Assembly: GCA_905234555.1 (NCBI GenBank) | Contig: CAJOHO010000012.1 | Location: forward strand, 12,123 to 76,122 | DNA length: 64,000 nt | Source: an uncultured Bacteroidaceae bacterium | GTDB lineage: Bacteria; Bacteroidota; Bacteroidia; Bacteroidales; Bacteroidaceae | Direction: 5' to 3' | Shown here: positions 2,703 through 60,850 of the stretch, in pieces | Numbering within the stretch: position 1 is the stretch's first letter | Layout of the letters: every line of letters begins with the position of its first letter | The notes under the pieces: generated by a model | What the model was told of the DNA's origin: nothing | What the model saw: the letters and a program-made list of their open reading frames with translations, nothing else | Databases searched by the model: none | Program-made: the position numbers and the translations under genes

Positions 2703-3357
2703 CGGGCACGACCTCTCCCAACTGAAGACTTGGGTGGAGCCGTACGAAGTGGATGCCTGCATGGTATCCTCTACTGCCGTCATCACCCCTGAGATGCGAG
2801 AACAGATTGCCGCTACAGGGATTCAACGGATCTGTTACCTCGATCACACCACTCCGCTGCCCATCCGCAACAGCTACTCCACGCCTGAGACGCTGGGTAC
2901 AGACCGTTTGGCAGCTTCAGTGGGAGCTTATTTCCTGGCAGCCGAACTCAAGAAAAAACATGTTCCTGTTCTGGTCATCGACCTCGGAACTGCTCTCACC
3001 TTCGACCTCGTCACCGCTGAAGGCGAATACTTGGGTGGGAACATATCGCCAGGCATTCAGATGCGACTCAAAGCACTCCATCAGTTCACTGCCCGTCTGC
3101 CAAAAGTGAACCCCGAAGGTCCTCTGCCTGCGCTGGGCAACTCCACAGAGACAGCGATCCGTTGTGGAGTGATTCACGGAATACAACGTGAAATTGAAGG
3201 CGCAATCCGGCAATTCAGTGTTAATTATCCACAACTTTTAGTCTTTTTGACGGGTGGAGACACTTTAGATTTTGCCAAACCGCTAAAAAAGCATATCTTT
3301 GCAGACAAATTCCTCGTTGCAAAAGGATTGAACATTATTTTAATGCATAATTCATAA
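2599..3357 (+). CDS. coaX: type III pantothenate kinase
   Basis: The N-terminus MVNLTIDIGNTTTKVAIH carries the DxGNT motif, and GTDR and GGNISPG motifs follow. The start is the internal ATG at 2599 of ORF 2428-3357. Confidence 0.85.
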   Translation: MVNLTIDIGNTTTKVAIHTPTTVVTNPPVASLRIDGHDLSQLKTWVEPYEVDACMVSSTAVITPEMREQIAATGIQRICYLDHTTPLPIRNSYSTPETLGTDRLAASVGAYFLAAELKKKHVPVLVIDLGTALTFDLVTAEGEYLGGNISPGIQMRLKALHQFTARLPKVNPEGPLPALGNSTETAIRCGVIHGIQREIEGAIRQFSVNYPQLLVFLTGGDTLDFAKPLKKHIFADKFLVAKGLNIILMHNS

Positions 3358-3376
3358 TGCATAATTCATAATTAAT
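3341..3376. repeat. word array ATGCATAATTCATA x2 (includes the coaX stop)
   Basis: There is a 14-bp tandem duplication at 3343-3356 and 3357-3370. Confidence 0.85.
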
Positions 3377-4724: not shown

Positions 4725-4770
4725 TGCATAATTGAGAATTCATAATTCATAATGCATAATGCCTAATTCA
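4722..4770. repeat. word array of the ATGCATAAT/TTCATAAT family
   Basis: The sequence is TAATGCATAATTGAGAATTCATAATTCATAATGCATAATGCCTAATTCA. Confidence 0.8.
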
Positions 4771-18136: not shown

Positions 18137-18167
18137 TGCATAATTCGTAATGCATAATGCATAATTG
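18128..18167. repeat. word array AATTCGTAATGCAT x2 plus AATGCATAATT (spans the clpC stop and the mltG start)
   Basis: The array was read directly from the sequence. Confidence 0.85.
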
Positions 18168-19207: not shown

Positions 19208-19263
19208 AATCCATAATTCCGTAAATCCGTAATTCCGTAAATCCGTAATTCCGTAAATCCGAA
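19208..19263. repeat. word array CCGTAAATCCGTAATT x3
   Basis: The 19-mer TCCGTAATTCCGTAAATCC occurs at 19226 and 19242. Its exact reverse complement occurs at 45792-45810. Confidence 0.9.
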
Positions 19264-23116: not shown

Positions 23117-23131
23117 ATTAAAAATTATAAA

Positions 23132-23208
23132 GTCGAAATGTCGAAATCCAGAAAAAATCTTAAAAATCGAAAAATAAATCGTAAATCGTCAATCGTCAAA
23201 TCGTAAAT
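23132..23208. repeat. word arrays GTCGAAAT x2 and AAATCGT(C) x4
   Basis: These are the same word families as at 1283-1365. Confidence 0.8.
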
Positions 23209-29493: not shown

Positions 29494-29529
29494 AAAAGTG
29501 AAAAGTGAAAAGTGAAGAGTGAAGAATTC
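29493..29529. repeat. word array (A)AAAGTG/AAGAGTG x5
   Basis: The sequence AAAAAGTGAAAAGTGAAAAGTGAAGAGTGAAGAATTC directly follows the stop codon. Confidence 0.85.
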
Positions 29530-29551
29530 ATTAATCATTAAACGGTAAACT

Positions 29552-29720
29552 GGAACATTTTGGAACAGCGAGAGCAGAGACCAAACTTGTTTGGACTATG
29601 CCGGACCGACGCACGAAGCAAGAGTAGAGGCCAAACTTGTTTGGGCTATGAGGAGGAAGACGTCAGTCAGTCGTGACAAAATCGACTGAATGTAATTCAG
29701 TAAACCGTAAACTGTAAACT
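29552..29720 (+). repeat. 169-bp structured element, copy 1 (ends 16 nt before the ATG of the PD40 lipoprotein gene)
   Basis: It is identical to 31523-31676 over 154 bp and matches 168/169 over the full length. It contains two CCAAAC-TT-GTTTGG hairpins 50 bp apart, plus TCAGTCG-N8-CGACTGA and CTGAAT-GTA-ATTCAG. Confidence 0.95.
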
Positions 29721-29736
29721 GTAAACCAAAAATTCG

Positions 29737-31436: not shown

Positions 31437-31497
31437 AGGCGCCCCAATTTGTCGAAATGTCGATATTCCGAAATATCGAAATGTCGACAAGGCGCCT
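31437..31497. repeat. 61-bp imperfect palindrome built from TCGAAATGTCGA words
   Basis: The outer arms are AGGCGCC/GGCGCCT and the inner arms are TCGATATT/AATATCGA. It lies 3 nt after the stop of the PD40 gene. Confidence 0.8.
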
Positions 31498-31522
31498 TCG
31501 AAATGTCGAAAAAAATTAAACA

Positions 31523-31691
31523 GGAACATTTTGGAACAGCGAGAGCAGAGACCAAACTTGTTTGGACTATGCCGGACCGACGCACGAAGCAAGAGTAGAG
31601 GCCAAACTTGTTTGGGCTATGAGGAGGAAGACGTCAGTCAGTCGTGACAAAATCGACTGAATGTAATTCAGTAAACGGTAAACTGTAAACT
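31523..31691 (+). repeat. 169-bp structured element, copy 2 (ends 9 nt before the ATG of the S9 peptidase gene)
   Basis: This is a direct repeat of 29552-29720, offset by 1971 bp. Confidence 0.95.
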
Positions 31692-33907: not shown

Positions 33908-34060
33908 AGCCCCCTCTAATCAATGGTCTTTACACCCCCTTCGCGCCCACCGTTGCAAGTGGGGGACTTGCAACCCTTTGTGGGGTCGGAGCCACATTCA
34001 GTGCCTCCTCTAAAGACCGTCGTCCCCAGTCATCGGGGGACAGAAACCCCCAAGGGGGAG
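33908..34060 (+). repeat. GC-rich element, long form (block A, 88-nt insert, block B)
   Basis: It has the same terminal blocks as 26290-26366. The internal part carries the hairpin TTGCAAGT-GGGGG-ACTTGCAA. Confidence 0.9.
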
Positions 34061-34094
34061 AATTATGAATTATGCATTATGAATTACGAATTAA
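34059..34094. repeat. word array GAATTATG/CATTATG/GAATTACG
   Basis: It is in the reverse orientation relative to the ATGCATAATTC family. Confidence 0.75.
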
Positions 34095-43040: not shown

Positions 43041-44525
43041 TCAGAAGCGGATGCGGATGGGTTTGGATTCGTTGTGGAGGCGGTCGAGTGCCGTGATGAG
43101 GAGGAGGTGGTCGGCAAACGGACCGTTGAGGAGGATTTCAGGCGAAGTGGTGATGGCAAGAATGTGAGTAGCATCTTCAAGGTTCACCTTCTCTCCTGGA
43201 CGGAAATCATAGACCACATACTGCACGGCACGATCCATCTCACGCTTTGCCTTAGGTGCGCTCCATCTTAACACCGTTCCCTGACTGCTCTGCTCCAATC
43301 GTGGATTACGCGGCTGCTTCGGCGCTTTCTTGTCGATGAACGTCATCAGCGGCTGAAGAGCCGGATAGCGATGATAATAGGTGCGAAGACGATCGGCATA
43401 ACCACCAGGATTGTTACAAACCGCAGCTGCATACCATTGGCAGGAACCTTGCACATTTTTCATAGAACGCTGAATCTCATACTTGGCATCCATCTGATGC
43501 TTCTGCGGATTCTGCGGATCGGTTCCCTTTACCGTCCGTTCCACATCCTGACCAATGAACAAAGGACGCTGGTGGCAGAAGTCGTTCCACCAGTTACATA
43601 GAATCTCGTAATCAGCTGCCCGATTCCCGATATTCCAATAAACCTGCGGAAGCAAATAATCCACCCAACCTTCCTGCTGCCAAAGAACAACATCAGCATA
43701 GAGGTCATCGTAGTTCTGTGTTCCCTTCGTCGCACTACCCCGCTTGGCGTTCACCATCTCTGTGTTATTACGATAAATGCCGAAAGGAGAGATGCCGAAC
43801 TTCACCCAAGGCTTCACCTCACGAATCAGACGATGAAGGTCGCGAATAAGCAGATTGACATTGTCGCGACGCCAGTCCTCGATGTTGGCGAACCCACGCG
43901 GATCTGCCTGATAATAAGCCTCATCGGGAATCTGAACTCCTGCCACAGGATAGGGATAGAAGTAGTCGTCCATGTGGATGCCATCTACGTCGTAGTGCTG
44001 AAGGATATCCTCCACCACCATGCAGGTGTAGGTACGGTTTTCAGGAAGGGCAGGATTGACAATCTGCAAACCATCATAGGGAAAGACACGTTCAGGATGA
44101 CGCACGACATAATGCGTGTTTGCCAGTTCGCTGGTGAATTTCGTCTTGGCACGATAAGGATTGATCCACGCATGGAGTTCCATTCCGCGTCGATGACACT
44201 GGTCCACCATCCACGACAGAGGATCCCATCCGTCGCTTGGTGCCACTCCCTGCTGACCCGTCAGATAACGGCTCCACGGTTCGTACTGAGAATGGTAGAG
44301 TGCATCACACTCTGCCCTCACCTGGAAGATGATGGCATTGATGCCACATTGTTGGAGACGGTCCAGCTGTGAGGACAGCATTTCGCGCAACTGTTCTGGT
44401 GTTTTGCCAAGATACTGTCCGTTGACACACTGAATCCAAGCACCACGGAATTCACGCTTGGGGGGATTCTGAGCCTGAGCGAAAACCGTAAAAAGTAGAA
44501 AAAACGAAAGGAGGAGCTTTTTCAT
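43041..44525 (-). CDS. glycoside-hydrolase-like family 10 (GHL10/DUF187) protein
   Basis: The signal peptide is followed by EFRGAWIQCV, and a TIM-barrel-like core follows (GINAIIFQVR, HAWINPYR). Confidence 0.65.
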   Translation of the reverse strand: MKKLLLSFFLLFTVFAQAQNPPKREFRGAWIQCVNGQYLGKTPEQLREMLSSQLDRLQQCGINAIIFQVRAECDALYHSQYEPWSRYLTGQQGVAPSDGWDPLSWMVDQCHRRGMELHAWINPYRAKTKFTSELANTHYVVRHPERVFPYDGLQIVNPALPENRTYTCMVVEDILQHYDVDGIHMDDYFYPYPVAGVQIPDEAYYQADPRGFANIEDWRRDNVNLLIRDLHRLIREVKPWVKFGISPFGIYRNNTEMVNAKRGSATKGTQNYDDLYADVVLWQQEGWVDYLLPQVYWNIGNRAADYEILCNWWNDFCHQRPLFIGQDVERTVKGTDPQNPQKHQMDAKYEIQRSMKNVQGSCQWYAAAVCNNPGGYADRLRTYYHRYPALQPLMTFIDKKAPKQPRNPRLEQSSQGTVLRWSAPKAKREMDRAVQYVVYDFRPGEKVNLEDATHILAITTSPEILLNGPFADHLLLITALDRLHNESKPIRIRF

Positions 44526-44572
44526 AATGGGTTAATGGGAATATTAAAGGGCTTAATGGGTTTAATGGGGTA
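44525..44572. repeat. word array TAATGGG x4 (plus TAAAGGG)
   Basis: Copies lie at 44525, 44533, 44545 (variant), 44554 and 44563. Confidence 0.85.
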
Positions 44573-45786: not shown

Positions 45787-45850
45787 TTTATGGATTTACG
45801 GAATTACGGATTTTGGGATTTTCGGAATTACGAAATTACGGAATTACGAA
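45787..45850. repeat. word array ATTTACGG/AATTACGG/AATTACGA
   Basis: It belongs to the reverse-complement family of 19208-19263. Confidence 0.85.
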
Positions 45851-46500: not shown

Positions 46501-46508
46501 TGAATTAT

Positions 46509-46571
46509 CAGAGGGTTCGGAGAACTCGGAGAACTCAGAGGATTCGGAGGATTTAGAGAACTCGGAGGATT
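46509..46571. repeat. seven tandem 9-mers (YRGAGRRYT)
   Basis: The units are CAGAGGGTT, CGGAGAACT, CGGAGAACT, CAGAGGATT, CGGAGGATT, TAGAGAACT and CGGAGGATT. Confidence 0.9.
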
Positions 46572-46572
46572 C

Positions 46573-50102: not shown

Positions 50103-50208
50103 AAAACTGACAGGCTCGTTACTGTGCCTTAACAATCCTACGATCAAAAATTGGCAGGCTCGTTATTGTGCCTTTATCATCCTACAATCAAAAATTGACA
50201 AGTTCGTT
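50103..50208 (+). repeat. 43-44-bp tandem repeat, about 2.5 units
   Basis: The units span 50103-50145, 50146-50189 and 50190 onward. They share AAAAyTGrCAgGcTCGTTAyTGTGCCT. Confidence 0.85.
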
Positions 50209-52426
50209 ACTGTGCCTCGTGGTTTTGCCACGAGGTTTTTTCGTTCCTCATCCCAAAAGTCAGAACCAAGCGAATCTCCGAATAGGTCACATCTGGCGGG
50301 CAGAGATTCTTAATAGGTGTCGCGCCGTCGGCAGTACCTATCTTCCGGACAACCTCCTTGATGGCCTGTTGATGCTCAGGCGGCACCAGGTCGTCTAAGC
50401 TTAGCTCGCCACTTTCAACATAGCGGGCAAGATGCCCAACAATCGTGTTGAGGGTAAGGCAGCGTTCACGGGCGATGAGGTCGGGGTTCATTCCCTCACA
50501 AAAGAGCTGGTACGTCACCTCCCAAGTCTTAGGCTTGGGCATCTTCTGCTCTGGCGTTTTCGCAGCTTTCGACTTTCTGGCACGCTTGGGTTTCTGGTCT
50601 TTCTCTTCCAATGCGTCGAGGGCAGACATCTGCTTCTCCTTCAAGTAGTTGCCGACCGAGAATCCCAGCTCTGCCATCTTCGCCAGCAGGAAGCATCGCG
50701 ACTGCCACACCTGCCGTTCGTCAGCCAAAGCGTTGTCGAGACGACGACGCGCCTGCTTGTTGTTGGTTTCCACCTTCGCTGAGAGCGTGATGGGCTTCGT
50801 GAGGATGGCAATCAGCTGTTCGGCAAAGTAGTCAGCACTTCGTTTCACACGTTCCAGGAACAATTCGTCGCGAAGCGCCTCAACAGGCATCGACTGGATT
50901 TTCTGCTGCCACTTCGCAGCCACATCGACGACTTTCTGGCGAAGGTCGCGCAACGCCTCATCGTGCATCACTCTTAGCTCTGCGTGGCTGTGGTAGAAGA
51001 ACTCAGAGAAGATGCGCACCATTGTCTCCTGATGAAAGAGCAAAGGCTGGAAGTCGAACAGCTGAAGGAGCAGGAAACGCTCGTACTCCTGCTTCAAGGC
51101 TGGCAGCTGGGCAATGCTGCGTGCCGCTTCACTCTCCTGATGGGCGATGTAGTTATCCACTCGCTGGTCGTTGATGACCGAACGGGCCTCCAGAGGCGAG
51201 GCAAGGAGAAGTCCGTCGAGTGTGCGGCAACGGCTCAGGGCTACATACACCTGACCAGGAGCAAAGCTCAGGTTGGCATCGATGATAGCGTGGTCGAACG
51301 TCAAGCCTTGACTCTTGTGAATGGTGATGGCCCAGGCCAGTCGCAAGGGCAGCTGGCGAAACGTACCCTGGACTTCTGCCTCTATCTCGCGTGTCTGTTC
51401 GTTCAGCGTATAGCGTGTGTTCTCCCACACCAGCGGCTCCACCTCGATGGCTTCCGCATCGCCTTCGCAATAGACGGTCAGACGGCTGTCGCTCGCCTCC
51501 GCCACACGTCCGATACGTCCGTTATAGTACAGGTGGTCGCCTGAAGGATCGTTCTTCACGAACATCACCTGTGCACCCTCTTTCAGGACGAGCGTCTCTG
51601 CCGTCGGGTACGAATACTCAGGAAAAGTCCCCTTGACTTCAGCGTGATAGGTGTAGGAGCGTCCAGGCAGTTTCTGCAGCTCTGTCTCGTTGTAGTGGTT
51701 GGCAAGGTTGTTATGGGTGGTCAACCTTATAGCTCCCCCTCTATCGGAGGGGGCTGGGGGGAGGCTTCTGCTGTTCAGCTTCGCCAAAGTGTCAGCCGAC
51801 GGATGACCCTGACGCACATCGTTCAGCAGATGGATGAACGACTCGTCCTGCTGGCGATAAACATGCTCCAGCTGAATCGTCACATAGTCAATCTGCTGCA
51901 AAGCCTTCGAACCAAAGAAATAAGGTGTGTCGTAGTAGGTGTTCAGCATGTGTTCTTCCTCTTGGGTGACAACAGGCGTCAGCTGAGCCAAGTCGCCAAT
52001 CATCAGCAACTGAACGCCGCCAAAGGGCTGGGAGTGGTCACGGAAACGGCGCAGCACAGCATCAATGGCATCGAGCAGGTCGGCTCGCACCATCGAAATC
52101 TCGTCGATAATCAGCAAGTCAATGGAGGCAATGATCTTTCGCTTCTCACGGCTGAAGTCAAACTTGCTTTCGATCTTGGCACCAGGCACGTAGGGTGAGA
52201 AAGGCAGCTGGAAGAAAGAGTGAATCGTCACCCCGCCTGCATTGATAGCAGCCACACCCGTCGGCGCCACCACGATGGGGCGTTTGCGCGAACGCTCCAC
52301 GACGGTTTTCAGGAAGGTTGTCTTTCCCGTTCCCGCCTTGCCCGTCAGGAAAATACTGCGTCTTGTATTCTCCACAAACTCCCATGCTGTATGCAGTTCC
52401 TTGTTCACGTATTGTTTTTCCATCAT
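50207..52426 (-). CDS. Pif1/RecD-like SF1 helicase with a C-terminal helix-turn-helix extension
   Basis: It has Walker A GKAGTGKTT, motif II LLIIDEISMV and a later TIHKSQGLTFD. The start is ATG 52426 (MMEKQ). Confidence 0.8.
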   Translation of the reverse strand: MMEKQYVNKELHTAWEFVENTRRSIFLTGKAGTGKTTFLKTVVERSRKRPIVVAPTGVAAINAGGVTIHSFFQLPFSPYVPGAKIESKFDFSREKRKIIASIDLLIIDEISMVRADLLDAIDAVLRRFRDHSQPFGGVQLLMIGDLAQLTPVVTQEEEHMLNTYYDTPYFFGSKALQQIDYVTIQLEHVYRQQDESFIHLLNDVRQGHPSADTLAKLNSRSLPPAPSDRGGAIRLTTHNNLANHYNETELQKLPGRSYTYHAEVKGTFPEYSYPTAETLVLKEGAQVMFVKNDPSGDHLYYNGRIGRVAEASDSRLTVYCEGDAEAIEVEPLVWENTRYTLNEQTREIEAEVQGTFRQLPLRLAWAITIHKSQGLTFDHAIIDANLSFAPGQVYVALSRCRTLDGLLLASPLEARSVINDQRVDNYIAHQESEAARSIAQLPALKQEYERFLLLQLFDFQPLLFHQETMVRIFSEFFYHSHAELRVMHDEALRDLRQKVVDVAAKWQQKIQSMPVEALRDELFLERVKRSADYFAEQLIAILTKPITLSAKVETNNKQARRRLDNALADERQVWQSRCFLLAKMAELGFSVGNYLKEKQMSALDALEEKDQKPKRARKSKAAKTPEQKMPKPKTWEVTYQLFCEGMNPDLIARERCLTLNTIVGHLARYVESGELSLDDLVPPEHQQAIKEVVRKIGTADGATPIKNLCPPDVTYSEIRLVLTFGMRNEKTSWQNHEAQ
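50209..50241 (+). terminator. intrinsic terminator after the DUF5020-like gene (shared hairpin family)
   Basis: ACTGTG-CCTCGTGG-TTTTG-CCACGAGG is followed by TTTTTT. It matches the reverse complement of 42992-43020 at 26 of 27 positions. Confidence 0.8.
51732..51770 (+). repeat. CCCTC-loop-GAGGG hairpin element inside the helicase CDS
   Basis: The sequence is GCTCCCCCTCTATCGGAGGGGGCTGGGGGGAGGCTTCTG. It is read antisense and in frame as SLPPAPSDRGGA. Confidence 0.8.
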
Positions 52427-54313: not shown

Positions 54314-54351
54314 ATTTATATCGGTATTATCCTGCAAAGTTCAGAAAAAAA

Positions 54352-54430
54352 ATGAAATATGAAGAATGAAGTGTGAAAAATGAAGAGTGAAGCGTGAAAA
54401 GTGAAGCGAGAAGGGTGAAGAGAAGAAAGG
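54352..54430. repeat. about 11 tandem 7-8-mers of the RTGAAGN family
   Basis: The sequence is ATGAAATATGAAGAATGAAGTGTGAAAAATGAAGAGTGAAGCGTGAAAAGTGAAGCGAGAAGGGTGAAGAGAAGAAAGG. Confidence 0.85.
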
Positions 54431-54466
54431 AATAAATGTGTTTACGCATATATCATTCAATTTTAA

Positions 54467-54515
54467 AATTCAAAACTATTTATTCAGATTTATAATTCAA
54501 AACTATTTATTCAGA
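54467..54515. repeat. 27-bp-period duplication of the 3' terminus of the 1098-aa gene
   Basis: AATTCAAAACTATTTATTCAGA occurs at 54467-54488 and again at 54494-54515. The second copy contains the stop and the last four codons. Confidence 0.85.
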
Positions 54516-57500
54516 ACTCCCTTGATTTCGACAAAAGTGTCTTCGTCGCCGTCATACACGACTGGGCTGTCGGACCAATGGGTGTTGGAGGTGACGGAGT
54601 GGTATTTTTCGTGAACGAAGAGCTGAATGCTGAAAGCACCCTTCGAGCGGTCGTTCTTCAGATATACTTGGTTTGCGACAAGACCAGTTTCCTGATGTAG
54701 TTTCTGCGACGACTTGAATTGGATGGTTGAGGAGGCCTTCGTGCTGTAATGATTGTCAATAGGGTCGGGGTCGCGAATAACTTGCCAGTAGTCGCCGACT
54801 TCGGTTCTGGTGGAAGAGGATGGCGACACGCTCTCCAACGACTCGAACATGGCATACACAGCATCTGACTCTCGGACGATGCGACACTTGCATTTAATGG
54901 TGAAACCCGTGAACTCGAAGTTGGCGTGGGACCTGTTCTCAGGAATGGCGTGGTTCACGCTGTGGGTGGGAATAGTGATAGTGGCGGCCTTTCCCTTCAC
55001 CACAATATGGGCATAGATGGGTGCGCCGTCGTTGTTGCATGTGTAGTCGAGCCAATAGCCATGCATCACGTTCGTCGTTGCCATTCTGTCAATGGCGTAT
55101 TTGGCATCAATCACCACCTCACCCAAGTCCTCAGTCACTTCTCCTTCGGGGCGTTTTCGGAATTCATTCTCTTCCTGTTCTGGCTTCACTTTTTCCTCAT
55201 CCTGATGCTCAATTTTCTTTTTCCGTTTATAGTTCACACGGTCGGTGGCTGGAGAATAATAGTAGTTCTTTCCGTCAGGAGTCTTATAATACCAGCGGGT
55301 GCGAACGGCTATGTCAATTTCCTCAGGATCGGAAATCCAGATTTCGTTGTACGGAATCTTCACCGTCTTTCCGCATTTGCTAAGCGGCACATTGAACGTC
55401 TTGTTCTTCTTCTTGGCTTTGTTGACAACGGCTATCTGCATGCCTGTAATGTATTTAGCCTGTAACAACGCCTTTGCGGGTTCATCGACCAAATCTATAT
55501 TCAAGCCCTCCGTATCCTTGGTCTCGCCATCAATGACGGGACTCTTGGGGCGGTAGAAAGCAACGAGATCCACGTAGTAGTCTTTGTCTAACCGGTCTTC
55601 CTCGATGCCTGGACGGTAAATGAGTGCTGCATTTACGGTTTTCTGGAACTCTTTGGCGCACGGTTCTATGTAATAACGGTCCTTCGGCTGAGCGCTGTCG
55701 CCTTCGATGAGTGAGAATTTCAGTCGTGGATCTGCAATCTTTTCAGAAGGAACGGCAAACACGTTATAGGGAATCTTTTCTTTCTCTTCATCCGACACTA
55801 TACGCAAGATTTTCACAGTAAAGGGATAGGCTGTGGAGCCACCCTGATGACCAAGAATGCGGAAACGATGAACAGGTATGATTCTGTTTTGCACTTGCGG
55901 CTTGTTGATGTATTTCTGATCATATTTACTATTCGTCTGCCTCTGCACAATCTCTGGCATGAAATGCCAAAGGAATTTTTCATAGACGATGGCGAAGTTC
56001 TTGTCGTTTTTGAGGTCGAAAATGGCTTTCAGGTTCTCAACAAAACTGTTGCCGCTGGAGAAATTCGACATGATTCTGTCAAAGTTCACTTTCTTCGTGT
56101 GGTCGCACATATACTGCAGCAAGTCTCCTAACATGTAGCCGCCGAAGGTTTGAGGCTCTTCAACCCCCAAGAGCTTTGCCGTTTTGAAGACTGTACTCTT
56201 AGGATAGTCTGTGCCAAGCGGCCAGGCGAGCAGTTGCTTGCAAAAGCGTGCTGCATATCCCAGACGCACAGCTGCTGCCGGCGACTCTGTATCCTCGTCT
56301 TTGAACAGGCCTTTCTTCTTCATCCAAGCGGCAAACCAATGCTCAGTAACCGAACCGATTGCCTCGAAGAACTGCAGATTGGACGACCAGACGGTATTGA
56401 TGTATTCGTTTTCGAAGGCATGACCGATTTCATGCGCCATACTGATTCCCAATATGTCTGCCTTGCTTCGGTCATAAATACGGTTACCTTCTTCACCGTT
56501 CAGGTAGCATTCATAGTTGATGAACACACGGTTGGTCATCAGTTTGCCTGTACTTCCCCCAGGAATGGGTTGAAAGAGAGCCTCTGTGGTATTAACGCCT
56601 TTTTCGTTACCTATCTCCGTACTCGACACAATATAAAGATTATAGGTATAGGAAAGGGGCTTCATGCCCAGTCCTAAGGTGTCGAGACTGAACTGGTGCA
56701 CCAGTTTCGTAGCGGCAATAATGTCCTGAACGCTTTGCGGCAGTTGGATGTCGGGGTCTTTCTTCAGGTTCTGATAGAGCGTATCTTTCTTGAGGAGGTC
56801 GTGATAGATGCGGTAACGGCCCACACGTCGTTCCATGATTTCGACGGGATCCACTTCTTCGTAGGGATTGTCGGCGAGATGAGTTGGCATGTGCGGCTTT
56901 ACTGGATGATCCTTATCGTACATCTGCTGAGCTGTGGCAGTATGTTGGGCTATCCGCTCTTCGAGTTGGGTGGTCTTGTCAAGATACTGAGGGAAGCGGG
57001 CGGCATCTTCAGTCTCAAGGAAACGGAACACCACGTTGAAATTGCCGTTTTTGTCCTTCACGGGAACGGTCACAAGGTCGTTCTTCTTCCAGAACTTCGC
57101 AGGATAGCCAGCCGCCTTCCAAGCCTGCAGGCTCTTGGTCACATTCATCGGAAGGGAAAACTGACCCGTATAGAAACCTGCAATAATAAGACCGGGAATG
57201 GCGACAGCTCCTGTTATCACAATCCAACTGTTCTGACTGGCATAATATTTCAGCACTCCCTTCGTCACATGGGAGTTCACTTCCATCAAATTTCCCTGTT
57301 CATCCACTCTCGCCAGACTGATATATGGATACAGTTCCTTAGGGATTCCAAGCTTTTTCAGGTTAATCTCAACCAGCATCTTGCCAGGCATCACAGAGTC
57401 GGAAGGGAGTCCTGCGTCGAGTTCGTAAGCATACAGCAGCTCATGATTCGGAAGATTGTTAGAAACAACCGAATCAAGCATTTGGATATCCTCGCCTTTG

Positions 57501-57799
57501 GCCACACTTACCTCAATCTGAGGATTGAGTTCGAAGGCTCCAGCTGGGACAGAGATTCGCAGTTCCTTCAGCGGATGAATCTTGAAAGCTTGGCTGTGTC
57601 CGCTGCCTTGTGCCAACGGAACTCCGTCAATGTTGAAACTACTCAGATGCTCATCCGTCAAGCGGTCGAGGAAACTGCCCTGAGCATCGCCATTTTCTCC
57701 ATTCGTTCCTCCCGAACAAGAGTTCAGAAACATGAAAAGTGAAGCGAAAAGAGTGAAGAGAAAGAACGAAATGTGGAATTTACGATTGAATGGAAACAT
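54503..57799 (-). CDS. 1098-aa lipoprotein of unknown function with an HExxH zinc-peptidase motif
   Basis: The lipobox is FLNSCSGG. HEIGH is encoded at 56421-56435, with a Glu 19 residues after the second His (FFEAIG). There is also a charged Lys/Glu linker. I recognise no other family signature. Confidence 0.6.
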   Translation of the reverse strand: MFPFNRKFHISFFLFTLFASLFMFLNSCSGGTNGENGDAQGSFLDRLTDEHLSSFNIDGVPLAQGSGHSQAFKIHPLKELRISVPAGAFELNPQIEVSVAKGEDIQMLDSVVSNNLPNHELLYAYELDAGLPSDSVMPGKMLVEINLKKLGIPKELYPYISLARVDEQGNLMEVNSHVTKGVLKYYASQNSWIVITGAVAIPGLIIAGFYTGQFSLPMNVTKSLQAWKAAGYPAKFWKKNDLVTVPVKDKNGNFNVVFRFLETEDAARFPQYLDKTTQLEERIAQHTATAQQMYDKDHPVKPHMPTHLADNPYEEVDPVEIMERRVGRYRIYHDLLKKDTLYQNLKKDPDIQLPQSVQDIIAATKLVHQFSLDTLGLGMKPLSYTYNLYIVSSTEIGNEKGVNTTEALFQPIPGGSTGKLMTNRVFINYECYLNGEEGNRIYDRSKADILGISMAHEIGHAFENEYINTVWSSNLQFFEAIGSVTEHWFAAWMKKKGLFKDEDTESPAAAVRLGYAARFCKQLLAWPLGTDYPKSTVFKTAKLLGVEEPQTFGGYMLGDLLQYMCDHTKKVNFDRIMSNFSSGNSFVENLKAIFDLKNDKNFAIVYEKFLWHFMPEIVQRQTNSKYDQKYINKPQVQNRIIPVHRFRILGHQGGSTAYPFTVKILRIVSDEEKEKIPYNVFAVPSEKIADPRLKFSLIEGDSAQPKDRYYIEPCAKEFQKTVNAALIYRPGIEEDRLDKDYYVDLVAFYRPKSPVIDGETKDTEGLNIDLVDEPAKALLQAKYITGMQIAVVNKAKKKNKTFNVPLSKCGKTVKIPYNEIWISDPEEIDIAVRTRWYYKTPDGKNYYYSPATDRVNYKRKKKIEHQDEEKVKPEQEENEFRKRPEGEVTEDLGEVVIDAKYAIDRMATTNVMHGYWLDYTCNNDGAPIYAHIVVKGKAATITIPTHSVNHAIPENRSHANFEFTGFTIKCKCRIVRESDAVYAMFESLESVSPSSSTRTEVGDYWQVIRDPDPIDNHYSTKASSTIQFKSSQKLHQETGLVANQVYLKNDRSKGAFSIQLFVHEKYHSVTSNTHWSDSPVVYDGDEDTFVEIKGVLNK

Positions 57800-57834
57800 A
57801 GGTGGAATTGGATAAATAAGGATGAATACTTAAA

Positions 57835-57850
57835 TATTTTTGCAAAAATA
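57835..57850. promoter_or_regulatory. 16-bp perfect palindrome TATTTTTGCAAAAATA, giving a TAnnTTTG box on both strands
   Basis: The minus-strand box at 57843-57850 lies 44 nt upstream of ATG 57799 of the 1098-aa gene. Confidence 0.5.
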
Positions 57851-58043
57851 CGGAAAAAAATCGGACCGACCGCATGATTCCAACAAAAATAATTCAAGAA
57901 ACATGTTTTTACATAGTTTTTGGAGATGAATTGCAGTTGACTGCAAGAATATTTGGTTCCTGATGCACTCTCTTGATAAGCAAACACTTACAGCGTGCAG
58001 AGCGAACACAAATTCTCTCGAAAGTTAAGTCAAAATAAAATTT

Positions 58044-58142
58044 CAAATACTTGGATGAAAAATTCCAAGTACTTGGAAAAAAATTTCTAAGTACTTAAAA
58101 AAATATTTCCAAGTACTTGAAAAAAAAATTCTAAGTACTTGG
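58044..58142. repeat. five-copy, 22-bp-period array of (C)YAAGTACTTRR palindromes separated by A-tracts
   Basis: The cores lie at 58044-58054 (degenerate), 58065-58076, 58087-58097, 58109-58120 and 58131-58142. The last four are spaced exactly 22 bp apart. Confidence 0.9.
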
Positions 58143-58186
58143 AAATTTCGTTAGAGTTAAGAGTTACGGAAATTTGAGCGAAGAAA

Positions 58187-58240
58187 AGTGAAAAGTGAAG
58201 CGTGAAGAGTTGAGCTTCTCTTCACGCTTCACTTTTCATT
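58187..58240. repeat. long perfect hairpin (20-bp stem, 8-nt loop) built from GTGAAG words
   Basis: The 5' arm at 58190-58209 (GAAAAGTGAAGCGTGAAGAG) is the exact reverse complement of 58218-58237. Three further flanking pairs include one wobble. Confidence 0.9.
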
Positions 58241-58430
58241 GCCACTTCGTTCTCGCCTCCGCTGATCGCTCCCACGCCTAAAAAGCCCCAGGCTTTTTGC
58301 CGCTTACGCTGTCAATAAGGCTTAATGGGCTCCCTTGCTTGTCAGCAAGACTATGCCCGCCTTATTTCCCGAAGGCTTTGCCTTTCGAGACGGCGTGACG
58401 TAGCTGCTTCGGCTCGCGATGGCTTCGCCA

Positions 58431-58459
58431 TTCTTCACTCTTCACTCTTCATTCTTCAC
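58431..58459. repeat. word array CTTCACT/CTTCATT x4 (reverse complement of the GTGAAG family)
   Basis: It abuts the stop codon of the TonB-dependent receptor. Confidence 0.8.
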
Positions 58460-60850
58460 TTAGAGCGAGATAGTGAGGTCGATGCCGAACTGACGGGGAC
58501 GGCAGGTCTGTGCCAATCCTTGAGAGAGAGACTCGAAGTAGAAGGGAACGTACTGCTTGTCCGTCAGGTTCTTGCCCCAGATGTTGATGGCCACGTTCTT
58601 GTAACGGGCACCTACATGTGCGCCTAAGAGGAGATAGAAGGGTTCGCTTGCGCTGTTGCTTTCTGTCCAATAGGTGCGACCTGCGCCTGTGATATTTGCT
58701 CCTAAGTTGAAATGTACGCGCTTCACGCTAAACATATATTCGGCTGCGGCAGCAACGGTGTGACGAGGTACGAAGGGCATATAGTTGTCATCATAGACTG
58801 CATCGCCTGCGTATTCGATGAACTTGGCGTTGGTGAAGCCATAAGAAACGTTCAGCGTTAAAGGATTGCGGAAAAGGTGGAACCAAGTGCCGGCGCTGAT
58901 TTCAGCTCCGCAACTTTCACTCTTGCCTGCATTCACCATCTGGCGACCCAGTCCGTTGGCTGCGAAACGTGCAATCTGCTGATCGACGGTACGAATATAG
59001 AAGGCAGCTGCGTTGAGCGTGAGGCGTCCGTCGAAGAGGTTGAGATGAGTTCCAAGTTCGAAGTTCCAGCTGGTTTCAGGCTTGAAGACGGTGGTGCTGT
59101 CGGCAGAAGGATTTTCGCCTGGCGTCATGTTGTAGCGGGCCATTGCTCCACCAATTGTGGGGTCGGCAGCCAAGTCCGCCATCATGTCGTTGCGCATACT
59201 GGCCTGAATGAGGTCGCTGAACATCTGTATGTTGTAGCCGCCCGAACGAAATCCCTTCGACACGCTGGCATAAATCATGTTCTGGTCGGGCAGTTCGTAA
59301 GTCAAAGCCACATTGGGCAGCACTTGTGTGTAATCTTTCTTGATGACGCCCTGATAGCCAGAAGTGGTGGTGAACTCCGTGTTAATCATAGGGATATTGC
59401 GACGCGTCATTACGAAAGCATAGTTGATGTCGGCTGCGCTGTTATAGTCCATCTTGTTGTGTTCGTAATCCACCCGGACGCCTGCCGTGAGGTTGAGGTG
59501 AGGCAGGAGATTCTTCAGCGTAGCCTGTCCGAAGGCAGCAGCATTGAACGAAGGCGTATCGAACAAACCGTTCACCGTCATTTTCTGATCGCTGATCTGG
59601 AGGTCGATATTCATACCCATCGGGTTCATTGCTTCGTTAGCTGCAGCAAATCCCTGATTGATGCCATTTTGGATGAACTGCTCAATACCCTCACGTCCAA
59701 ACACGACAGGAGCGTTGGTTTTGAGCCATTGTTGAGCGACATAAACGCCTCCCACCCACTCGAACTTGCGGTTTCGACGACTTTTCGCAACGAGTTCCTC
59801 AGAGAGATAATGACTGCGCTGACGCTGCTCCAAAGTGAAGAGATTGGCTGGCGAGAAGTCCTGATCCATGAACATTCGGTCAGTAAGGAACTGGTAGCCA
59901 GTCACAGAAGTAAGAGTAAAATGTTTCTGAACGGACTGAAGTTTCAGCGAATTGTTGAAGAGCATACGGCGATAACTGCCCAGTTCGCTTTCACGAATCT
60001 GACCAATCCCGTTGTCAGCATTTGGAGCATTTCCAGGCTGAGCGGCAATTTCGTCAGGATTGAGGTCAGCTACTTTGTAGTAGTCATAACCTTTCTCGTC
60101 ACTGTACTCCACACTGGTCTGGAAATCAGCCGTGAAGCCAGGATGGCGTTCTGGATTGAAGACGTAACGGAACTTCACACCTCCTGCATCACCTCCGTTG
60201 CTCTTGCGGTTCAGGAACGTGTTGCGGTTGTAACCGTCGTTGCCTTCGTAGAAAGCAGCAAAGGAATAAGCTGCGTTCTCACCCACAGGTGCAGCTGTAC
60301 GGAAATTCACATAACGGCCAGCGTCCTCTGTGGAAGCTCCAGCACGGATAACGGTCTGGCGTCCACGCCAACGAGTGTCGAGGGGATTGAAGGTGTAGAG
60401 TTTGAGCAAACCGCCCATTGCGTTGCGTCCGTAAAGTGTGGATTGCGGACCACGCAACACTTCCACTCGCTGCACGTCGTTGAAGCTGATGTCGAAAGCC
60501 GACTTCTCCTTGAATGCCACATCATCGACATAGAGTCCGACTGAAGGTGTGTTGAGACGCGAGCCTACACCTCTTATATATATAGCGCTCGTGAGGCGAG
60601 AGCCGTAGTCAGGAATGAAGAGGTTGGGAACGAACTGTGCTGCGGATTTCAGAGAGTTAGTTCCTTGCTCCTGCAACTGAGTGGTGGTGATGGCGCTGTA
60701 GCTCAGCGGCTGCTGAGACAAAGTGCCTGTGGTCTTGGGGTCGCCTTCCACCACGATGGGGGCAAGCTGAATGGACTCCTGTGCTGAGAGATGAGCTGCC
60801 ATCAAGGCTGCTCCTATCAGCATCATTGTTTTTCTGTAAATTTGTTTCAT
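58460..60850 (-). CDS. TonB-dependent receptor (no adjacent SusD)
   Basis: It has a signal peptide, a plug domain (IYIRGVGSR, LYGRNAMGG) and a barrel of about 22 strands. Confidence 0.85.
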   Translation of the reverse strand: MKQIYRKTMMLIGAALMAAHLSAQESIQLAPIVVEGDPKTTGTLSQQPLSYSAITTTQLQEQGTNSLKSAAQFVPNLFIPDYGSRLTSAIYIRGVGSRLNTPSVGLYVDDVAFKEKSAFDISFNDVQRVEVLRGPQSTLYGRNAMGGLLKLYTFNPLDTRWRGRQTVIRAGASTEDAGRYVNFRTAAPVGENAAYSFAAFYEGNDGYNRNTFLNRKSNGGDAGGVKFRYVFNPERHPGFTADFQTSVEYSDEKGYDYYKVADLNPDEIAAQPGNAPNADNGIGQIRESELGSYRRMLFNNSLKLQSVQKHFTLTSVTGYQFLTDRMFMDQDFSPANLFTLEQRQRSHYLSEELVAKSRRNRKFEWVGGVYVAQQWLKTNAPVVFGREGIEQFIQNGINQGFAAANEAMNPMGMNIDLQISDQKMTVNGLFDTPSFNAAAFGQATLKNLLPHLNLTAGVRVDYEHNKMDYNSAADINYAFVMTRRNIPMINTEFTTTSGYQGVIKKDYTQVLPNVALTYELPDQNMIYASVSKGFRSGGYNIQMFSDLIQASMRNDMMADLAADPTIGGAMARYNMTPGENPSADSTTVFKPETSWNFELGTHLNLFDGRLTLNAAAFYIRTVDQQIARFAANGLGRQMVNAGKSESCGAEISAGTWFHLFRNPLTLNVSYGFTNAKFIEYAGDAVYDDNYMPFVPRHTVAAAAEYMFSVKRVHFNLGANITGAGRTYWTESNSASEPFYLLLGAHVGARYKNVAINIWGKNLTDKQYVPFYFESLSQGLAQTCRPRQFGIDLTISL

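What the first reader, a model, noticed from the sequence alone, without database searches (positions are those of the whole stretch)
58044..58142. Helically phased array of five AGTACTT palindromes separated by A-tracts
The cores are CAAATACTTGG, CCAAGTACTTGG, CTAAGTACTTA, CCAAGTACTTGA and CTAAGTACTTGG. The last four start exactly 22 bp apart (58065, 58087, 58109, 58131), and each is followed by a run of 6-9 A.

Twenty-two bp is about two helical turns. All the palindromes would therefore lie on one face of the helix, and the A-tracts would add up to a strong intrinsic bend.

The array lies 200-300 bp upstream of the predicted promoter of the orphan 1098-aa HExxH lipoprotein gene, within a 660-bp gene-free gap. 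This looks like a cooperative binding platform for a dimeric DNA-binding protein, such as a regulator, a nucleoid protein or an iteron-like site. It does not look like slippage debris.
Basis: partly seen in the sequence, partly recalled or inferred. Interest (0 to 1): 0.66.

Follow-up and report, generated by a model that had tools for sequence, protein, structure and literature searches.

The report
Dispersed 22-bp palindrome array family
The five AAGTACTT palindromes are real, but they are one copy of a widespread repeat family found between genes in Prevotella-like gut and rumen bacteria, most likely a shared docking site for an unknown DNA-binding protein rather than a private switch for the neighbouring gene.

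Summary
Five units lie at 58044-58142, four of them exactly 22 bp apart. AAGTACTT occurs 5 times in the window against 0.54 expected.

The array is not unique to this promoter. The same 22-bp unit (WW TTTCC AAGTACTT GGAAA WW, an 18-bp palindrome) forms 3-10-unit arrays at 60 or more other places:
- at least 14 in one 65%-GC MAG (CAVGCV01);
- about 20 in one assembly (FLNU01);
- many in JGI metagenome contigs.

Arrays at different loci align as whole blocks, spacers included. They sit inside larger mosaics of other roughly 22-bp "bricks".

They are intergenic and nearly always upstream of at least one gene. Divergent promoter gaps are strongly enriched (Fisher p 1e-6 in FLNU01). The A-rich strand shows no preferred orientation.

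The two half-sites vary independently, with no compensatory changes. In the GC-rich MAG the arrays stay about 25% GC and 89% identical, while their flanks are 57-59% identical.

My best reading is a new family of dispersed modular repeats, architecturally like BrickBuilt or BIME elements. Its units are probably duplex binding sites for a dimeric, genome-wide acting protein. Binding is inferred, not shown. A gene-specific operator, an iteron array and a strong intrinsic bend are not supported.

The parts
58044..58142 (.). Five 22-bp units with palindromic core YYAAGTACTTRR (unit 1 degenerate: AAATACTT). The spacers are A-rich on the + strand.
   Evidence: In strain L003 unit 1 is a perfect AAGTACTT.
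58009..58043 (.). Left flanking 'brick' of the repeat element. It contains GAAAGTTAAGTC and is homologous to the flanks of other family copies.
   Evidence: blastn of the gap against the fetched loci: matches extend to 58009/58010 (L136, L160). Alignment A5.
58143..58182 (.). Right flanking 'brick' (GGAAATTTCGTTAGAGTTAAGAGTTACGGAAATTTGAGCG). It resembles the GGTTAAGTT-type flank of the FLNU01 copies.
   Evidence: L136 match extends to 58182.
58189..58238 (-). Context: a perfect 21-bp stem hairpin made of GTGAAGA-type heptamers, terminator-like. It lies between the TonB receptor stop and the array.
   Evidence: I9, 100% complementary; terminator-like site 58237->58190.
57843..57891 (-). Context: two Bacteroidota-type -7 boxes TATTTTTG (57843-57850 and 57884-57891). 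These are the likely promoter(s) of the 1098-aa gene and lie downstream of the array.
   Evidence: The TAnnTTTG consensus is from established knowledge of Bacteroidota promoters.
54503..57799 (-). Context: the downstream gene. It encodes a 1098-aa orphan lipoprotein with HEIGH at residue 456 and no Pfam domain. Only 21 homologues were found.
58460..60850 (-). Context: the upstream gene, a TonB-dependent receptor (Plug + beta-barrel).

Best explanation
The array is one copy of a dispersed, modular intergenic repeat family of Prevotellaceae-like Bacteroidales.

**Shown.**
- The 22-bp unit is an 18-bp palindrome, TTTCC-AAGTACTT-GGAAA, plus 4 A/T bases.
- It forms 3-10-unit arrays at many loci and in several genomes with 37-65% GC.
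- Arrays recur as whole blocks and are embedded in mosaics of other roughly 22-bp bricks.
- They lie in promoter-bearing gaps, especially divergent ones, with no preferred orientation of the A-rich strand and at 30 to about 700 bp from gene starts.

**Inferred.**
- Each palindrome is read as duplex DNA by a symmetric dimeric protein.
- Centres 22 bp apart (about two turns) put successive dimers on roughly one face, so 3-10 dimers can assemble cooperatively.
- The protein acts genome-wide as an architectural, boundary or global-regulator element in the untranscribed spacer between a terminator and the next promoter. It is not an operator private to the 1098-aa gene.
- The family spreads or is homogenised by block copying: ectopic conversion or non-autonomous transposition.
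For: **Membership in a dispersed family.**
- A genome scan for three phased cores returned more than 115 stretches, including 14 arrays of the window's exact unit in MAG CAVGCV01.
- A family-specific pattern returned 60 metagenome stretches.
- blastn of the gap hits 58009-58182 only, at 81-92% identity to many loci.
- Nine low-GC copies align as complete blocks, spacers included.

**Sequence-level constraint.**
- 282 units give a logo with the core at least 96% invariant.
- Only C/T and G/A transitions occur at positions +-1 and +-2, and almost only A/T bases are seen at +-6 and +-7.
- Watson-Crick pairing between the half-sites matches the expectation under independence (203 observed vs 196 expected; 190 vs 199). 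This argues for recognition of sequence, not of a hairpin.
- In the 65%-GC MAG the 66-bp arrays are 23-29% GC and 89% identical to each other. Their 66-bp flanks are 53-85% GC and only 57-59% identical. All 14 copies have exactly 3 units.

**Position.**
- Of 33 arrays with both neighbours called, 15 are in divergent gaps, 16 in tandem gaps and 2 in convergent gaps.
- FLNU01 internal control: array gaps are 10 divergent, 4 tandem and 1 convergent. Only 10 of 115 other gaps are divergent (Fisher p 1.4e-6; p 0.008 against other gaps of at least 300 bp).
- Neighbour identities were checked with Pfam.
- A second family with the same core, called with the same method, shows the opposite bias towards 3' ends (13 convergent, 5 divergent).

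**Recurrence and stability.**
- Arrays lie upstream of clpB and of moxR in two species whose proteins are 79% and 85% identical. There the array is the best-conserved part of the gap.
- Copy number is unchanged between close strains, while neighbouring brick arrays gain or lose 22, 44 or 66 bp.

**In the window.** A strong terminator-like hairpin precedes the array and the -7 boxes follow it. The array is therefore probably not transcribed.
Against: - No protein binding, and no candidate protein, was identified.
- Block-wise copying alone could explain much of the similarity between copies.
- The presence upstream of moxR is patchy: it is present in two lineages and absent in two others at 82-85% protein identity. 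That fits gain and loss better than strict conservation.
- At strain level the array is not more conserved than its flanks (3/99 vs 6/561 differences in the window; 2/96 in L157 vs L186).
- Gene calls used for the context statistics are crude longest-ORF calls, only partly verified with Pfam.
- Only one copy is visible in this 64-kb window, and the rest of the source genome could not be searched.
- This genome's intergenic DNA is generally rich in short tandem repeats: 22 of 32 gaps carry one.
Confidence: 0.5

Rival explanations
1. A selfish or neutral mosaic minisatellite. On this reading it is a BrickBuilt-like non-autonomous element, or a set of arrays homogenised by ectopic gene conversion. 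It persists in tolerant promoter-side spacers and has no host function. The palindrome is only what happens to be copied.
For: - Copies share whole blocks, including the order of spacer variants.
- Copy number is characteristic of each genome (3, 4-5 or 5-10).
- Presence at the moxR locus is patchy across species.
- Neighbouring brick arrays show whole-unit indels between strains.
- There is a precedent: BrickBuilt in P. gingivalis is a 23-nt minisatellite inside a MITE, always intergenic (PMC4596501).
- The array is not more conserved than its flanks between close strains.
Against: - No terminal inverted repeats, target-site duplications or transposase remnants were seen. Similarity decays gradually through degenerate bricks rather than ending sharply.
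- Arrays remain about 25% GC and 89% identical inside 65%-GC DNA whose flanking bricks have diverged to 57-59% identity.
- Variation is limited to transitions at two positions and to A/T bases in the spacer.
- Divergent promoter gaps are strongly enriched even relative to other long gaps.
- The family is absent from viral contigs, phages and plasmids.
Confidence: 0.28
2. A nucleic-acid structure element. The palindromes would extrude as cruciforms and absorb the negative supercoiling generated between divergent or highly expressed promoters. Alternatively they would act in RNA as tandem AU-rich hairpin plus U-run terminators or stabilisers.
For: - The region folds far better than shuffles: DNA -23.9 kcal/mol (z -6.9) and minus-strand RNA -39.7 kcal/mol (z -7.6).
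- On the minus strand, which is the sense strand of both flanking genes, each hairpin is followed by a run of 5-9 T.
- Arrays are enriched between divergent, often highly expressed genes.
- In FLNU01, Z-DNA-prone alternating CG tracts cluster within 600 bp of arrays: 8 in 34 kb against 3 in 167 kb.
Against: - There is no compensatory covariation between half-sites. C·A mismatches (44) are as common as T·G pairs (35).
- Stems per unit are only about 7 AT-rich pairs.
- The A-rich strand has no preferred orientation relative to flanking genes. This is incompatible with a terminator role.
- In the window a much stronger terminator-like hairpin already precedes the array, and the promoter boxes follow it. 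The array is probably untranscribed.
- No Rfam family matches.
Confidence: 0.12
3. One reading: a gene-specific cooperative operator or activator platform controlling the 1098-aa lipoprotein gene. An enhancer for a sigma-54 promoter is a variant of this idea.
For: - The array lies upstream of the gene's -7 boxes.
- The units are palindromic, as operators often are.
- A conserved sigma-54-like -24/-12 candidate lies 120-127 bp downstream of the array upstream of clpB in two species.
Against: - The same array occurs next to dozens of functionally unrelated genes.
- Upstream regions of five homologues of the 1098-aa gene contain no AGTACT at all.
- No regulator gene is adjacent.
- Sigma-54-type promoters are not enriched near arrays (0.20 vs 0.25 per kb), and none lies in this gap.
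- The distance to gene starts ranges from about 30 to 700 bp.
Confidence: 0.05
4. An iteron array of a plasmid-type or secondary replication origin. Alternatively, transposase-binding end repeats, such as the 22-bp MuA or TnsB sites.
For: A 22-bp period and tandem direct arrangement are typical of iterons (for example R6K) and of Mu/Tn7 end sites. This comparison is from general knowledge and was not tested here.
Against: - There are many copies per genome in ordinary chromosomal gaps.
- No rep, par or transposase gene is nearby.
- There is no DnaA box in the gap.
- There are no matches in plasmids, phages or viral contigs.
- The units are palindromic rather than directional.
Confidence: 0.01

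Closest known systems
BrickBuilt MITE/minisatellite of Porphyromonas gingivalis (Klein et al. 2015, PMC4596501)
   Same: - The host is a Bacteroidales bacterium.
- It is a tandem array of a 22-23-nt unit without spacers, with variable unit number, flanked by other family-specific sequence.
- There are about 20 copies per genome, always intergenic, 49-591 nt from coding sequences.
- It lies next to some of the same kinds of genes (clpB, methylmalonyl-CoA mutase, TonB-dependent receptor, HU).
[quoted passage not shown]
   Different: - The unit sequence is unrelated (AGAYCATARTATCCTCTCRTRTG), is not palindromic, and has no match in the window.
[quoted passage not shown] No such ends occur here.
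- BrickBuilt is confined to P. gingivalis and P. gulae. This family spans genomes of 37-65% GC.
- No promoter motif lies inside the present element.
REP/BIME elements of enterobacteria, especially IHF-containing RIB/RIP BIMEs
   Same: - Both are dispersed intergenic mosaics of short palindromic modules in regular arrays.
- In the GC-rich MAG, an AT-rich central module is flanked by inverted GC-rich palindromic modules.
- REP/BIME elements are known to be bound by architectural proteins (IHF, gyrase, Pol I). This is from general knowledge and from the abstract of PMC2817692 listed.
   Different: - REPs are GC-rich imperfect palindromes with a GTAG/CGTC tag. They lie mainly at 3' ends of genes and are linked to RAYT transposases.
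- Here the units are AT-rich and untagged.
- Here they are biased to promoter-side and divergent gaps.
- No RAYT was seen.
Phased multi-site platforms for architectural or global regulators (for example Fis sites upstream of rrn P1; SlmA SBS GTGAGTACTCAC; Noc NBS ATTTCCCGGGAAAT)
   Same: - They are palindromic sites for dimers that recur at many chromosomal places.
- Multiple sites are phased by whole helical turns upstream of strong promoters.
- The SBS shares the AGTACT centre and the NBS shares the ATTTCC...GGAAAT arms. These comparisons are from memory; they are leads, not tests.
   Different: - Those sites are single or loosely spaced. They are not head-to-tail tandem copies inherited as a block.
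- No homologous protein was linked to the present arrays.
- Bacteroidota are not known to encode Fis, SlmA or Noc (from memory).
Iterons of theta-replicating plasmids
   Same: Tandem direct repeats with a period of about 22 bp, in an AT-rich setting.
   Different: - Iterons occur at one locus per replicon, next to a rep gene, with DnaA boxes, and the repeats are directional.
- None of these features is met here.

Membership tests
AAGTACTT 22-bp array family (defined here) | Unit WW-TTTYY-AAGTACTT-RRAAA-WW repeated head to tail at 22 bp, with at least 3 units | tested here: met
   The window units match the logo built from 282 units.
AAGTACTT 22-bp array family (defined here) | Block-level homology to copies at unrelated loci, including spacers and flanking bricks | tested here: met
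   81-92% identity over 58009-58182 to L136, L156, L160, L157 and the FLNU01 copies.
AAGTACTT 22-bp array family (defined here) | Multiple copies in the same genome | not testable with these tools
   Only 64 kb of the source genome is available and it holds one copy. Multi-copy status is shown for CAVGCV01 (14 copies) and FLNU01 (about 20).
BrickBuilt MITE (P. gingivalis) | 23-nt unit AGAYCATARTATCCTCTCRTRTG | tested here: not met
   0 matches with up to 3 mismatches.
BrickBuilt MITE (P. gingivalis) | Leader and tail ending in IS5-type inverted repeats GAGACCTTTGCA / TGCAAAGGTCTC | tested here: not met
   No match within 57800-58460. The 5 window-wide matches with 2 mismatches are at or below the chance level.
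BrickBuilt MITE (P. gingivalis) | Intergenic tandem array of a 22-23-nt unit without unique spacers | tested here: met
REP/BIME | GC-rich 20-40-bp imperfect palindromes with a GTAG/CGTC tag, in alternating orientation | tested here: not met
   The units are about 25% GC, carry no tag and are all in register.
REP/BIME | Preference for 3' ends of genes and convergent gaps | tested here: not met
   2 of 33 arrays are in convergent gaps and 15 of 33 in divergent gaps.
Plasmid iterons / replication origin | Adjacent initiator (rep) gene, DnaA boxes, and a single locus per replicon | tested here: not met
   The neighbours are a TonB receptor gene and an orphan lipoprotein gene. There is no DnaA box in the gap. 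The family has many loci per genome and no plasmid match.
CRISPR array | Repeats separated by unique spacers of similar length | tested here: not met
   The units abut one another. The 'spacers' are 10 conserved A/T-rich bases.
Intrinsic (rho-independent) terminators | A stable GC-rich stem followed by a U-run on the transcribed strand, oriented with the upstream gene | tested here: inconclusive
   T-runs follow each palindrome on the minus strand in the window. However, the stems are AT-rich, and across the family the T-rich strand is not oriented with neighbouring genes.
Sigma-54 enhancer (bEBP UAS) | A -24/-12 promoter (TGGCAC-N5-TTGC) about 80-200 bp downstream | tested here: not met
   None in the window gap and no enrichment near arrays. 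The one exception is a conserved candidate upstream of clpB in L136 and L154.
LytTR-type operators | Direct 9-bp repeats [TA][AC][CA]GTTN[AG][TG] with 12-13-bp spacers (consensus recalled from memory) | tested here: not met
   The period fits, but the core CAAGTACTT does not match the consensus and is palindromic. Only the flanking GTTAAG bricks resemble it.
Known RNA families (Rfam 15) | Covariance-model match at the gathering score | tested here: not met
   Only a tRNA is found elsewhere in the window. The gap yields only sub-threshold hairpin-like hits.

The most novel reading that the evidence does not exclude
The AAGTACTT arrays would be the chromosomal docking sites of an as yet unidentified, sequence-specific architectural or global regulatory protein of Prevotellaceae. 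The protein would oligomerise on 3-10 phased palindromes in the untranscribed spacers upstream of many genes. These are often highly expressed and divergently transcribed genes (pfl|dnaK, pckA, rpsL, clpB, ppdK, ompA). Possible roles are setting promoter output, insulating neighbouring transcription units, or handling transcription-driven supercoiling. That would be a nucleoid-organising system with no described counterpart in Bacteroidota.
Probability: 0.3. Interest if true: 0.8.

Novelty: new variant of a known kind. Interest (0 to 1): 0.58.

Why it matters
Prevotella and Segatella dominate many human guts and the rumen, yet their transcriptional and nucleoid organisation is almost unknown.

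A sharply conserved 18-bp palindrome has three notable properties:
- it is repeated in phase;
- it is scattered through promoter-side spacers of several species;
- it is kept AT-rich even inside 65%-GC DNA.

This gives a concrete, testable handle for finding the protein or process that reads it. Pulldown, DAP-seq and array deletion are all feasible.

It also matters practically. These arrays and their neighbouring 22-bp bricks probably break short-read assemblies. They could also be mistaken for gene-specific operators in regulon predictions.

If the family turns out to be only a selfish minisatellite, it still extends the BrickBuilt type of element from one oral species to a broad group of gut and rumen Bacteroidales.

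Tried and rejected
- **Literature search for the raw motif.** AAGTACTT appears in 756 papers, all primers or unrelated sequences. Keyword searches for Prevotella or Bacteroidales intergenic or 22-bp repeats found only BrickBuilt as a relevant precedent.
- **Orthologous comparison through the 1098-aa gene.**
  - Same-strain contigs are identical and uninformative.
  - The contigs carrying the 84% and 52% homologues start only 58 bp upstream of the gene.
  - The upstream regions of more distant homologues have no AAGTACTT. One (L181) carries other bricks of about 22 bp.
- **Terminator idea.** I tested whether the T-rich strand follows the sense of the upstream gene across loci. No orientation preference was found.
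- **Hairpin or cruciform covariation.** None was found.
- **Sigma-54 enhancer idea.** There is no enrichment of -24/-12 sites near arrays.
- **Mobile-element and origin hallmarks.** There is no BrickBuilt inverted repeat or unit, and no DnaA box in the gap.
- **Plasmid, phage and virus origin.** There are no matches. BLAST's low-complexity filter may hide weak hits.
- **Rfam.** Nothing was found.
- **Strict orthologous conservation upstream of moxR.** The array is present in two lineages and absent in two, so the claim was reduced to 'recurrent but patchy'.
- **Curvature.** It is not exceptional.
- **21-bp arrays with the same core.** Those in Nostoc, Saprospiraceae, Aureispira and others were set aside as probably unrelated tandem repeats selected by the search pattern.
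Full report
**1. The observation**

There are five cores, the last four starting at 58065, 58087, 58109 and 58131. TRF reports a 22-bp period with 5.1 copies, and the repeat finder gives spacings of 22, 22, 22. AAGTACTT occurs five times in the 64-kb window against 0.54 expected, with no shuffle reaching five, and four of the five are here.

Two details needed correction:
- Runs of 6-9 A follow only units 2-4.
- The conserved unit is longer than the reported core.

The array lies in the 660-bp gap between the stop of a TonB-dependent receptor gene (58460-60850, minus strand) and the start of a 1098-aa gene (54503-57799, minus strand). That gene has no Pfam domain. Its product has a lipoprotein-type signal peptide and HEIGH at residue 456.

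Reading along the minus strand, the gap contains in order:
- GTGAAGA-type heptamer repeats;
- a 190-nt GC-rich stretch;
- a perfect 21-bp terminator-like hairpin at 58189-58238;
- the array;
- two Bacteroidota-type -7 boxes (TATTTTTG) at 57884-57891 and 57843-57850.

The array therefore sits between a likely terminator and the likely promoter(s). It is probably not transcribed.

**2. It is not unique to this locus**

Contigs carrying the identical protein have an identical gap. A 99% strain (L003) also has five units. It differs by three substitutions, one of which makes unit 1 a perfect AAGTACTT.

Reading them showed the following.

*Family A.* This is the window's exact unit, TTTCC-AAGTACTT-GGAAA plus A/T spacer, with even the CC/CT alternation preserved. 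It occurs 14 times on 10 contigs of MAG CAVGCV01 ('bacterium isolate H07676'). Each array has exactly three units. Each lies at the centre of a larger imperfect palindrome made of GC-rich bricks of about 22 bp.

*Family B.* This has the same 8-bp core and period but different arms and spacer (ACGYAAGTACTTRCG plus a GC-containing spacer, bracketed by an A-run and a T-run). It occurs in many copies in Segatella copri, Prevotella sp. UMGS1929, and several MAGs labelled as Firmicutes.

*Assorted 21-bp arrays* occur in cyanobacteria and Saprospiraceae. I regard these as unrelated repeats picked up by the pattern.

A pattern specific to family A found 60 metagenome stretches and none in viral contigs:
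- about 20 arrays of 5-10 units in assembly FLNU01 (51-59% GC);
- many 3-unit arrays in Ga0326511/Ga0326513 contigs (48-62% GC);
- 4-5-unit arrays in Ga0247611, Ga0247609, Ga0310691 and Ga0310697 contigs (37-46% GC).

blastn of the whole gap against all fetched loci matches only 58009-58182, at 81-92% identity. Nine low-GC copies align with the window as whole blocks, including the individual spacer variants and a GTTAAG-type flanking brick. The feature is thus an element of about 175 bp from a dispersed family.

**3. Anatomy of the family**

I built a logo from 282 units in 64 arrays. The result is WW TTT[C>T][C>T] AAGTACTT [G>A][G>A]AAA WW.
- The core is at least 96% invariant.
- Positions +-1 and +-2 vary only by transitions.
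- Almost only A or T is seen at positions +-6 and +-7.
- Watson-Crick complementarity between the two half-sites equals the expectation under independence (203 vs 196; 190 vs 199).
- C·A mismatches (44) are as frequent as T·G pairs (35).

There is thus no compensatory signal of a selected hairpin. The pattern is that of a conserved duplex sequence.

In FLNU01 the arrays are polar. They contain unit subtypes in a conserved order and grade outwards into degenerate GC-richer units, and then into other brick types such as CCACAGTGGAAATCC and GGTTAAGTT. There is no sharp end, no inverted terminal repeat and no BrickBuilt-type repeat.

In the 65%-GC MAG the 66-bp arrays are 23-29% GC and 89% identical to one another. 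The 66 bp on either side are 53-85% GC and only 57-59% identical.

Copy number is characteristic of each genome: 3, 4-5, or 5-10. It is stable between close strains, being 5 in the window and in L003. It is also 5 in L157 and L186, where the neighbouring brick arrays differ by indels of 22, 44 and 66 bp.

**4. Where the arrays sit**

I used one crude ORF caller throughout. Of 33 family-A arrays with both neighbours called, 15 lie in divergent gaps, 16 in tandem gaps and 2 in convergent gaps.

Family B, called the same way, shows the opposite pattern: 13 convergent, 18 tandem and 5 divergent.

Within the FLNU01 loci, gaps with an array are 10 divergent, 4 tandem and 1 convergent. Only 10 of 115 other gaps are divergent (Fisher p 1.4e-6). 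Against other gaps of at least 300 bp, p is 0.008.

Pfam confirmed many neighbours. They include:
- pyruvate formate-lyase | DnaK;
- PEP carboxykinase;
- ribosomal protein S12 | MatE;
- methylmalonyl-CoA mutase;
- ClpB;
- PPDK;
- OmpA;
- MoxR;
- glutamate dehydrogenase;
- an HU-like protein;
- LpxD;
- glycoside hydrolases.

Many of these are typically highly expressed, but they share no functional theme.

The A-rich strand shows no preferred orientation relative to neighbouring genes. Distances to gene starts range from about 30 to 700 bp.

**5. Conservation across species**

Arrays lie upstream of clpB in L136 and in FLNU01 (L154). The ClpB N-termini are 79% identical. Arrays also lie upstream of moxR in L157 and FLNU01 (L174), where MoxR is 85% identical. 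In both pairs the array is the best-conserved part of the gap apart from the promoter box and the start region.

I then fetched three more moxR loci. The array is present in the 99% relative (L186). It is absent in two species at 85% and 82% protein identity. The recurrence is real but patchy. It fits either ancestral presence with loss, or repeated acquisition at favoured sites.

Homologues of the 1098-aa gene (46-47% identity) have no AGTACT upstream. One of them carries different AT-rich bricks of about 22 bp.

**6. Mechanism**

*Shown.* The array belongs to a dispersed family with sequence-level constraint, a promoter-side location, no strand preference, and no hairpin covariation. In the window it probably occupies an untranscribed position.

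*Inferred.*
- A symmetric dimeric protein reads each 18-bp palindrome.
- Centres 22 bp apart put successive dimers on about the same helical face.
- Three to ten dimers could then form a cooperative nucleoprotein unit acting genome-wide as an architectural element, a boundary or a global regulator.

I put about 0.5 on this combined statement. Membership of the dispersed family itself is near certain.

*Rivals.*
- The main rival (0.28) is a functionless minisatellite or MITE-like repeat spread by block copying.
- Structure-based roles such as cruciforms or RNA hairpins fit the folding scores and the nearby Z-DNA-prone tracts in FLNU01. They do not fit the lack of covariation or of orientation preference.
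- A gene-specific operator, a sigma-54 enhancer and iterons are not supported.

*The claimed intrinsic bend.* A wedge-model estimate gives about 52 degrees over 120 bp. That is the 90th percentile of all windows, but it is below the mean of other AT-rich windows (66 degrees), and 24% of shuffles reach it. A 21-bp period would give about 107 degrees (parameters from memory, crude model).

**7. Comparison with known elements, and novelty**

The closest described element is BrickBuilt of Porphyromonas gingivalis (PMC4596501).

Shared features:
- a 23-nt minisatellite within a MITE;
- about 19 intergenic copies;
- bidirectional promoter activity reported in E. coli reporter constructs;
- neighbours that include clpB and methylmalonyl-CoA mutase.

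Differences:
- The architecture is alike but the unit is unrelated and non-palindromic.
- BrickBuilt's defining IS5-type ends are absent here.

REP/BIME elements share the mosaic-of-palindromes idea. They differ in composition, in their tag and in positional bias.

I found no description of the AAGTACTT family in the searchable literature. I therefore classify it as a new variant of a known kind, the dispersed modular intergenic repeat. There is a realistic chance (about 0.3) that it marks an undescribed DNA-binding system in Prevotellaceae.

**8. Caveats**
- The rest of the source genome was not available.
- The gene calls behind the context statistics are approximate.
- Units within a genome are related by descent, so unit counts are not independent.
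- The environments of the JGI contigs are not given by the tools.
- No experiment supports binding.

Noticed in passing
window, whole (e.g. 1279-1364, 3341-3373, 4722-4770, 18128-18165, 19208-19261, 23102-23208, 29494-29727, 31450-31691, 34060-34093, 44525-44569, 45788-45848, 46508-46572, 54348-54518): Short tandem repeats, mostly 7-9-bp units such as TAATGCA, TAAATCG, AATCCGTA, TTACGGAA and GTGAAGA, fill the spaces between genes. 22 of 32 inter-ORF gaps carry one. They cover 23% of intergenic bases against 1% of ORF bases. Many lie directly in front of start codons. This looks like a genome-wide property and deserves its own study.
   Followed up: partly
window 58183-58460: A 190-nt GC-rich stretch (about 54% GC) lies immediately after the TonB receptor stop codon. 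It is bracketed by inverted arrays of GTGAAGA/TCTTCAC heptamers and includes a perfect 21-bp hairpin at 58189-58238. The minus-strand RNA fold is -117.6 kcal/mol (z -6.8). It has no Rfam match and no copy in any fetched locus. It may be a 3'-UTR RNA or another repeat element.
   Followed up: partly
window 57726-57754 vs 58182-58210: The region encoding the signal peptide of the 1098-aa gene is 86% identical to the heptamer-repeat arm of the intergenic hairpin (family D2). It is unclear whether this is coincidence or repeat-derived coding sequence.
   Followed up: no
L016, L036, L039, L050, L053, L054, L062, L068, L077, L085, L090 (Prevotella/Segatella); L006, L007 and many others (CAVJRQ01, CAVFNZ01): A second high-copy family has the same AAGTACTT core and 22-bp period. 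Its arms are ACGY...RCG, its spacers contain G and C, and it is bracketed by an A-run and a T-run. It is biased towards convergent gaps and 3' ends (13 convergent, 5 divergent). It appears both in Segatella copri or Prevotella and in MAGs labelled Acutalibacteraceae or Clostridium. Its presence across phyla is unexplained.
   Followed up: partly
FLNU01 loci, e.g. L121:5622, L142:2469, L150:9409, L174:1405, L175:9216: Alternating CG/CA tracts of 12-22 bp, which are Z-DNA-prone and often flanked by TATATA, cluster within 600 bp of the AAGTACTT arrays. There are 8 in 34 kb near arrays against 3 in 167 kb elsewhere.
   Followed up: partly
L136:758-773 and L154:8681-8696: A sigma-54-like -24/-12 candidate (GGGAACAGGAGTTGCA and TGGAATGCTGTTTGCA) is conserved upstream of clpB in two species. 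It lies 120-127 bp downstream of the array. There is no general enrichment of such sites near arrays.
   Followed up: partly
L157:665-1550 vs L186:9166-10000: The region upstream of moxR is a series of different brick arrays of about 22 bp: CTTAAC-type, then AAGTACTT, then CAGTTAGTTGTGGAGACACTTA-type. Between two near-identical strains the outer brick arrays differ by whole-unit indels of 22, 44 and 66 bp. The AAGTACTT array keeps 5 units.
   Followed up: yes
CAVGCV01 loci, e.g. L074:2860-3060: In the 65%-GC MAG, each 3-unit AT-rich array is the centre of a long, nearly perfect palindrome. The arms are built of bricks such as GGTGCGCC...GGAAGTTTGG on the left and their inverse on the right.
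   Followed up: partly
L181:2100-2500: Upstream of a 47%-identical homologue of the 1098-aa gene there are other periodic AT-rich repeats (CAAGAGTT heptamer-like units and ACTTAAGTAT-containing units of about 22 bp). There is no AAGTACTT.
   Followed up: no
window 50103-50217 and 54455-54518: Two further longer-period tandem repeats in neighbouring gaps were not examined: a 44-bp unit x2.6 next to the PIF1-like helicase gene, and a 27-bp unit x2.3 downstream of the 1098-aa gene.
   Followed up: no
L004 and L005 (contig starts): Both Logan contigs carrying closer homologues of the 1098-aa gene begin exactly 58 bp upstream of the start codon. This may reflect assembly breaks at repeat-rich upstream DNA.
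   Followed up: no
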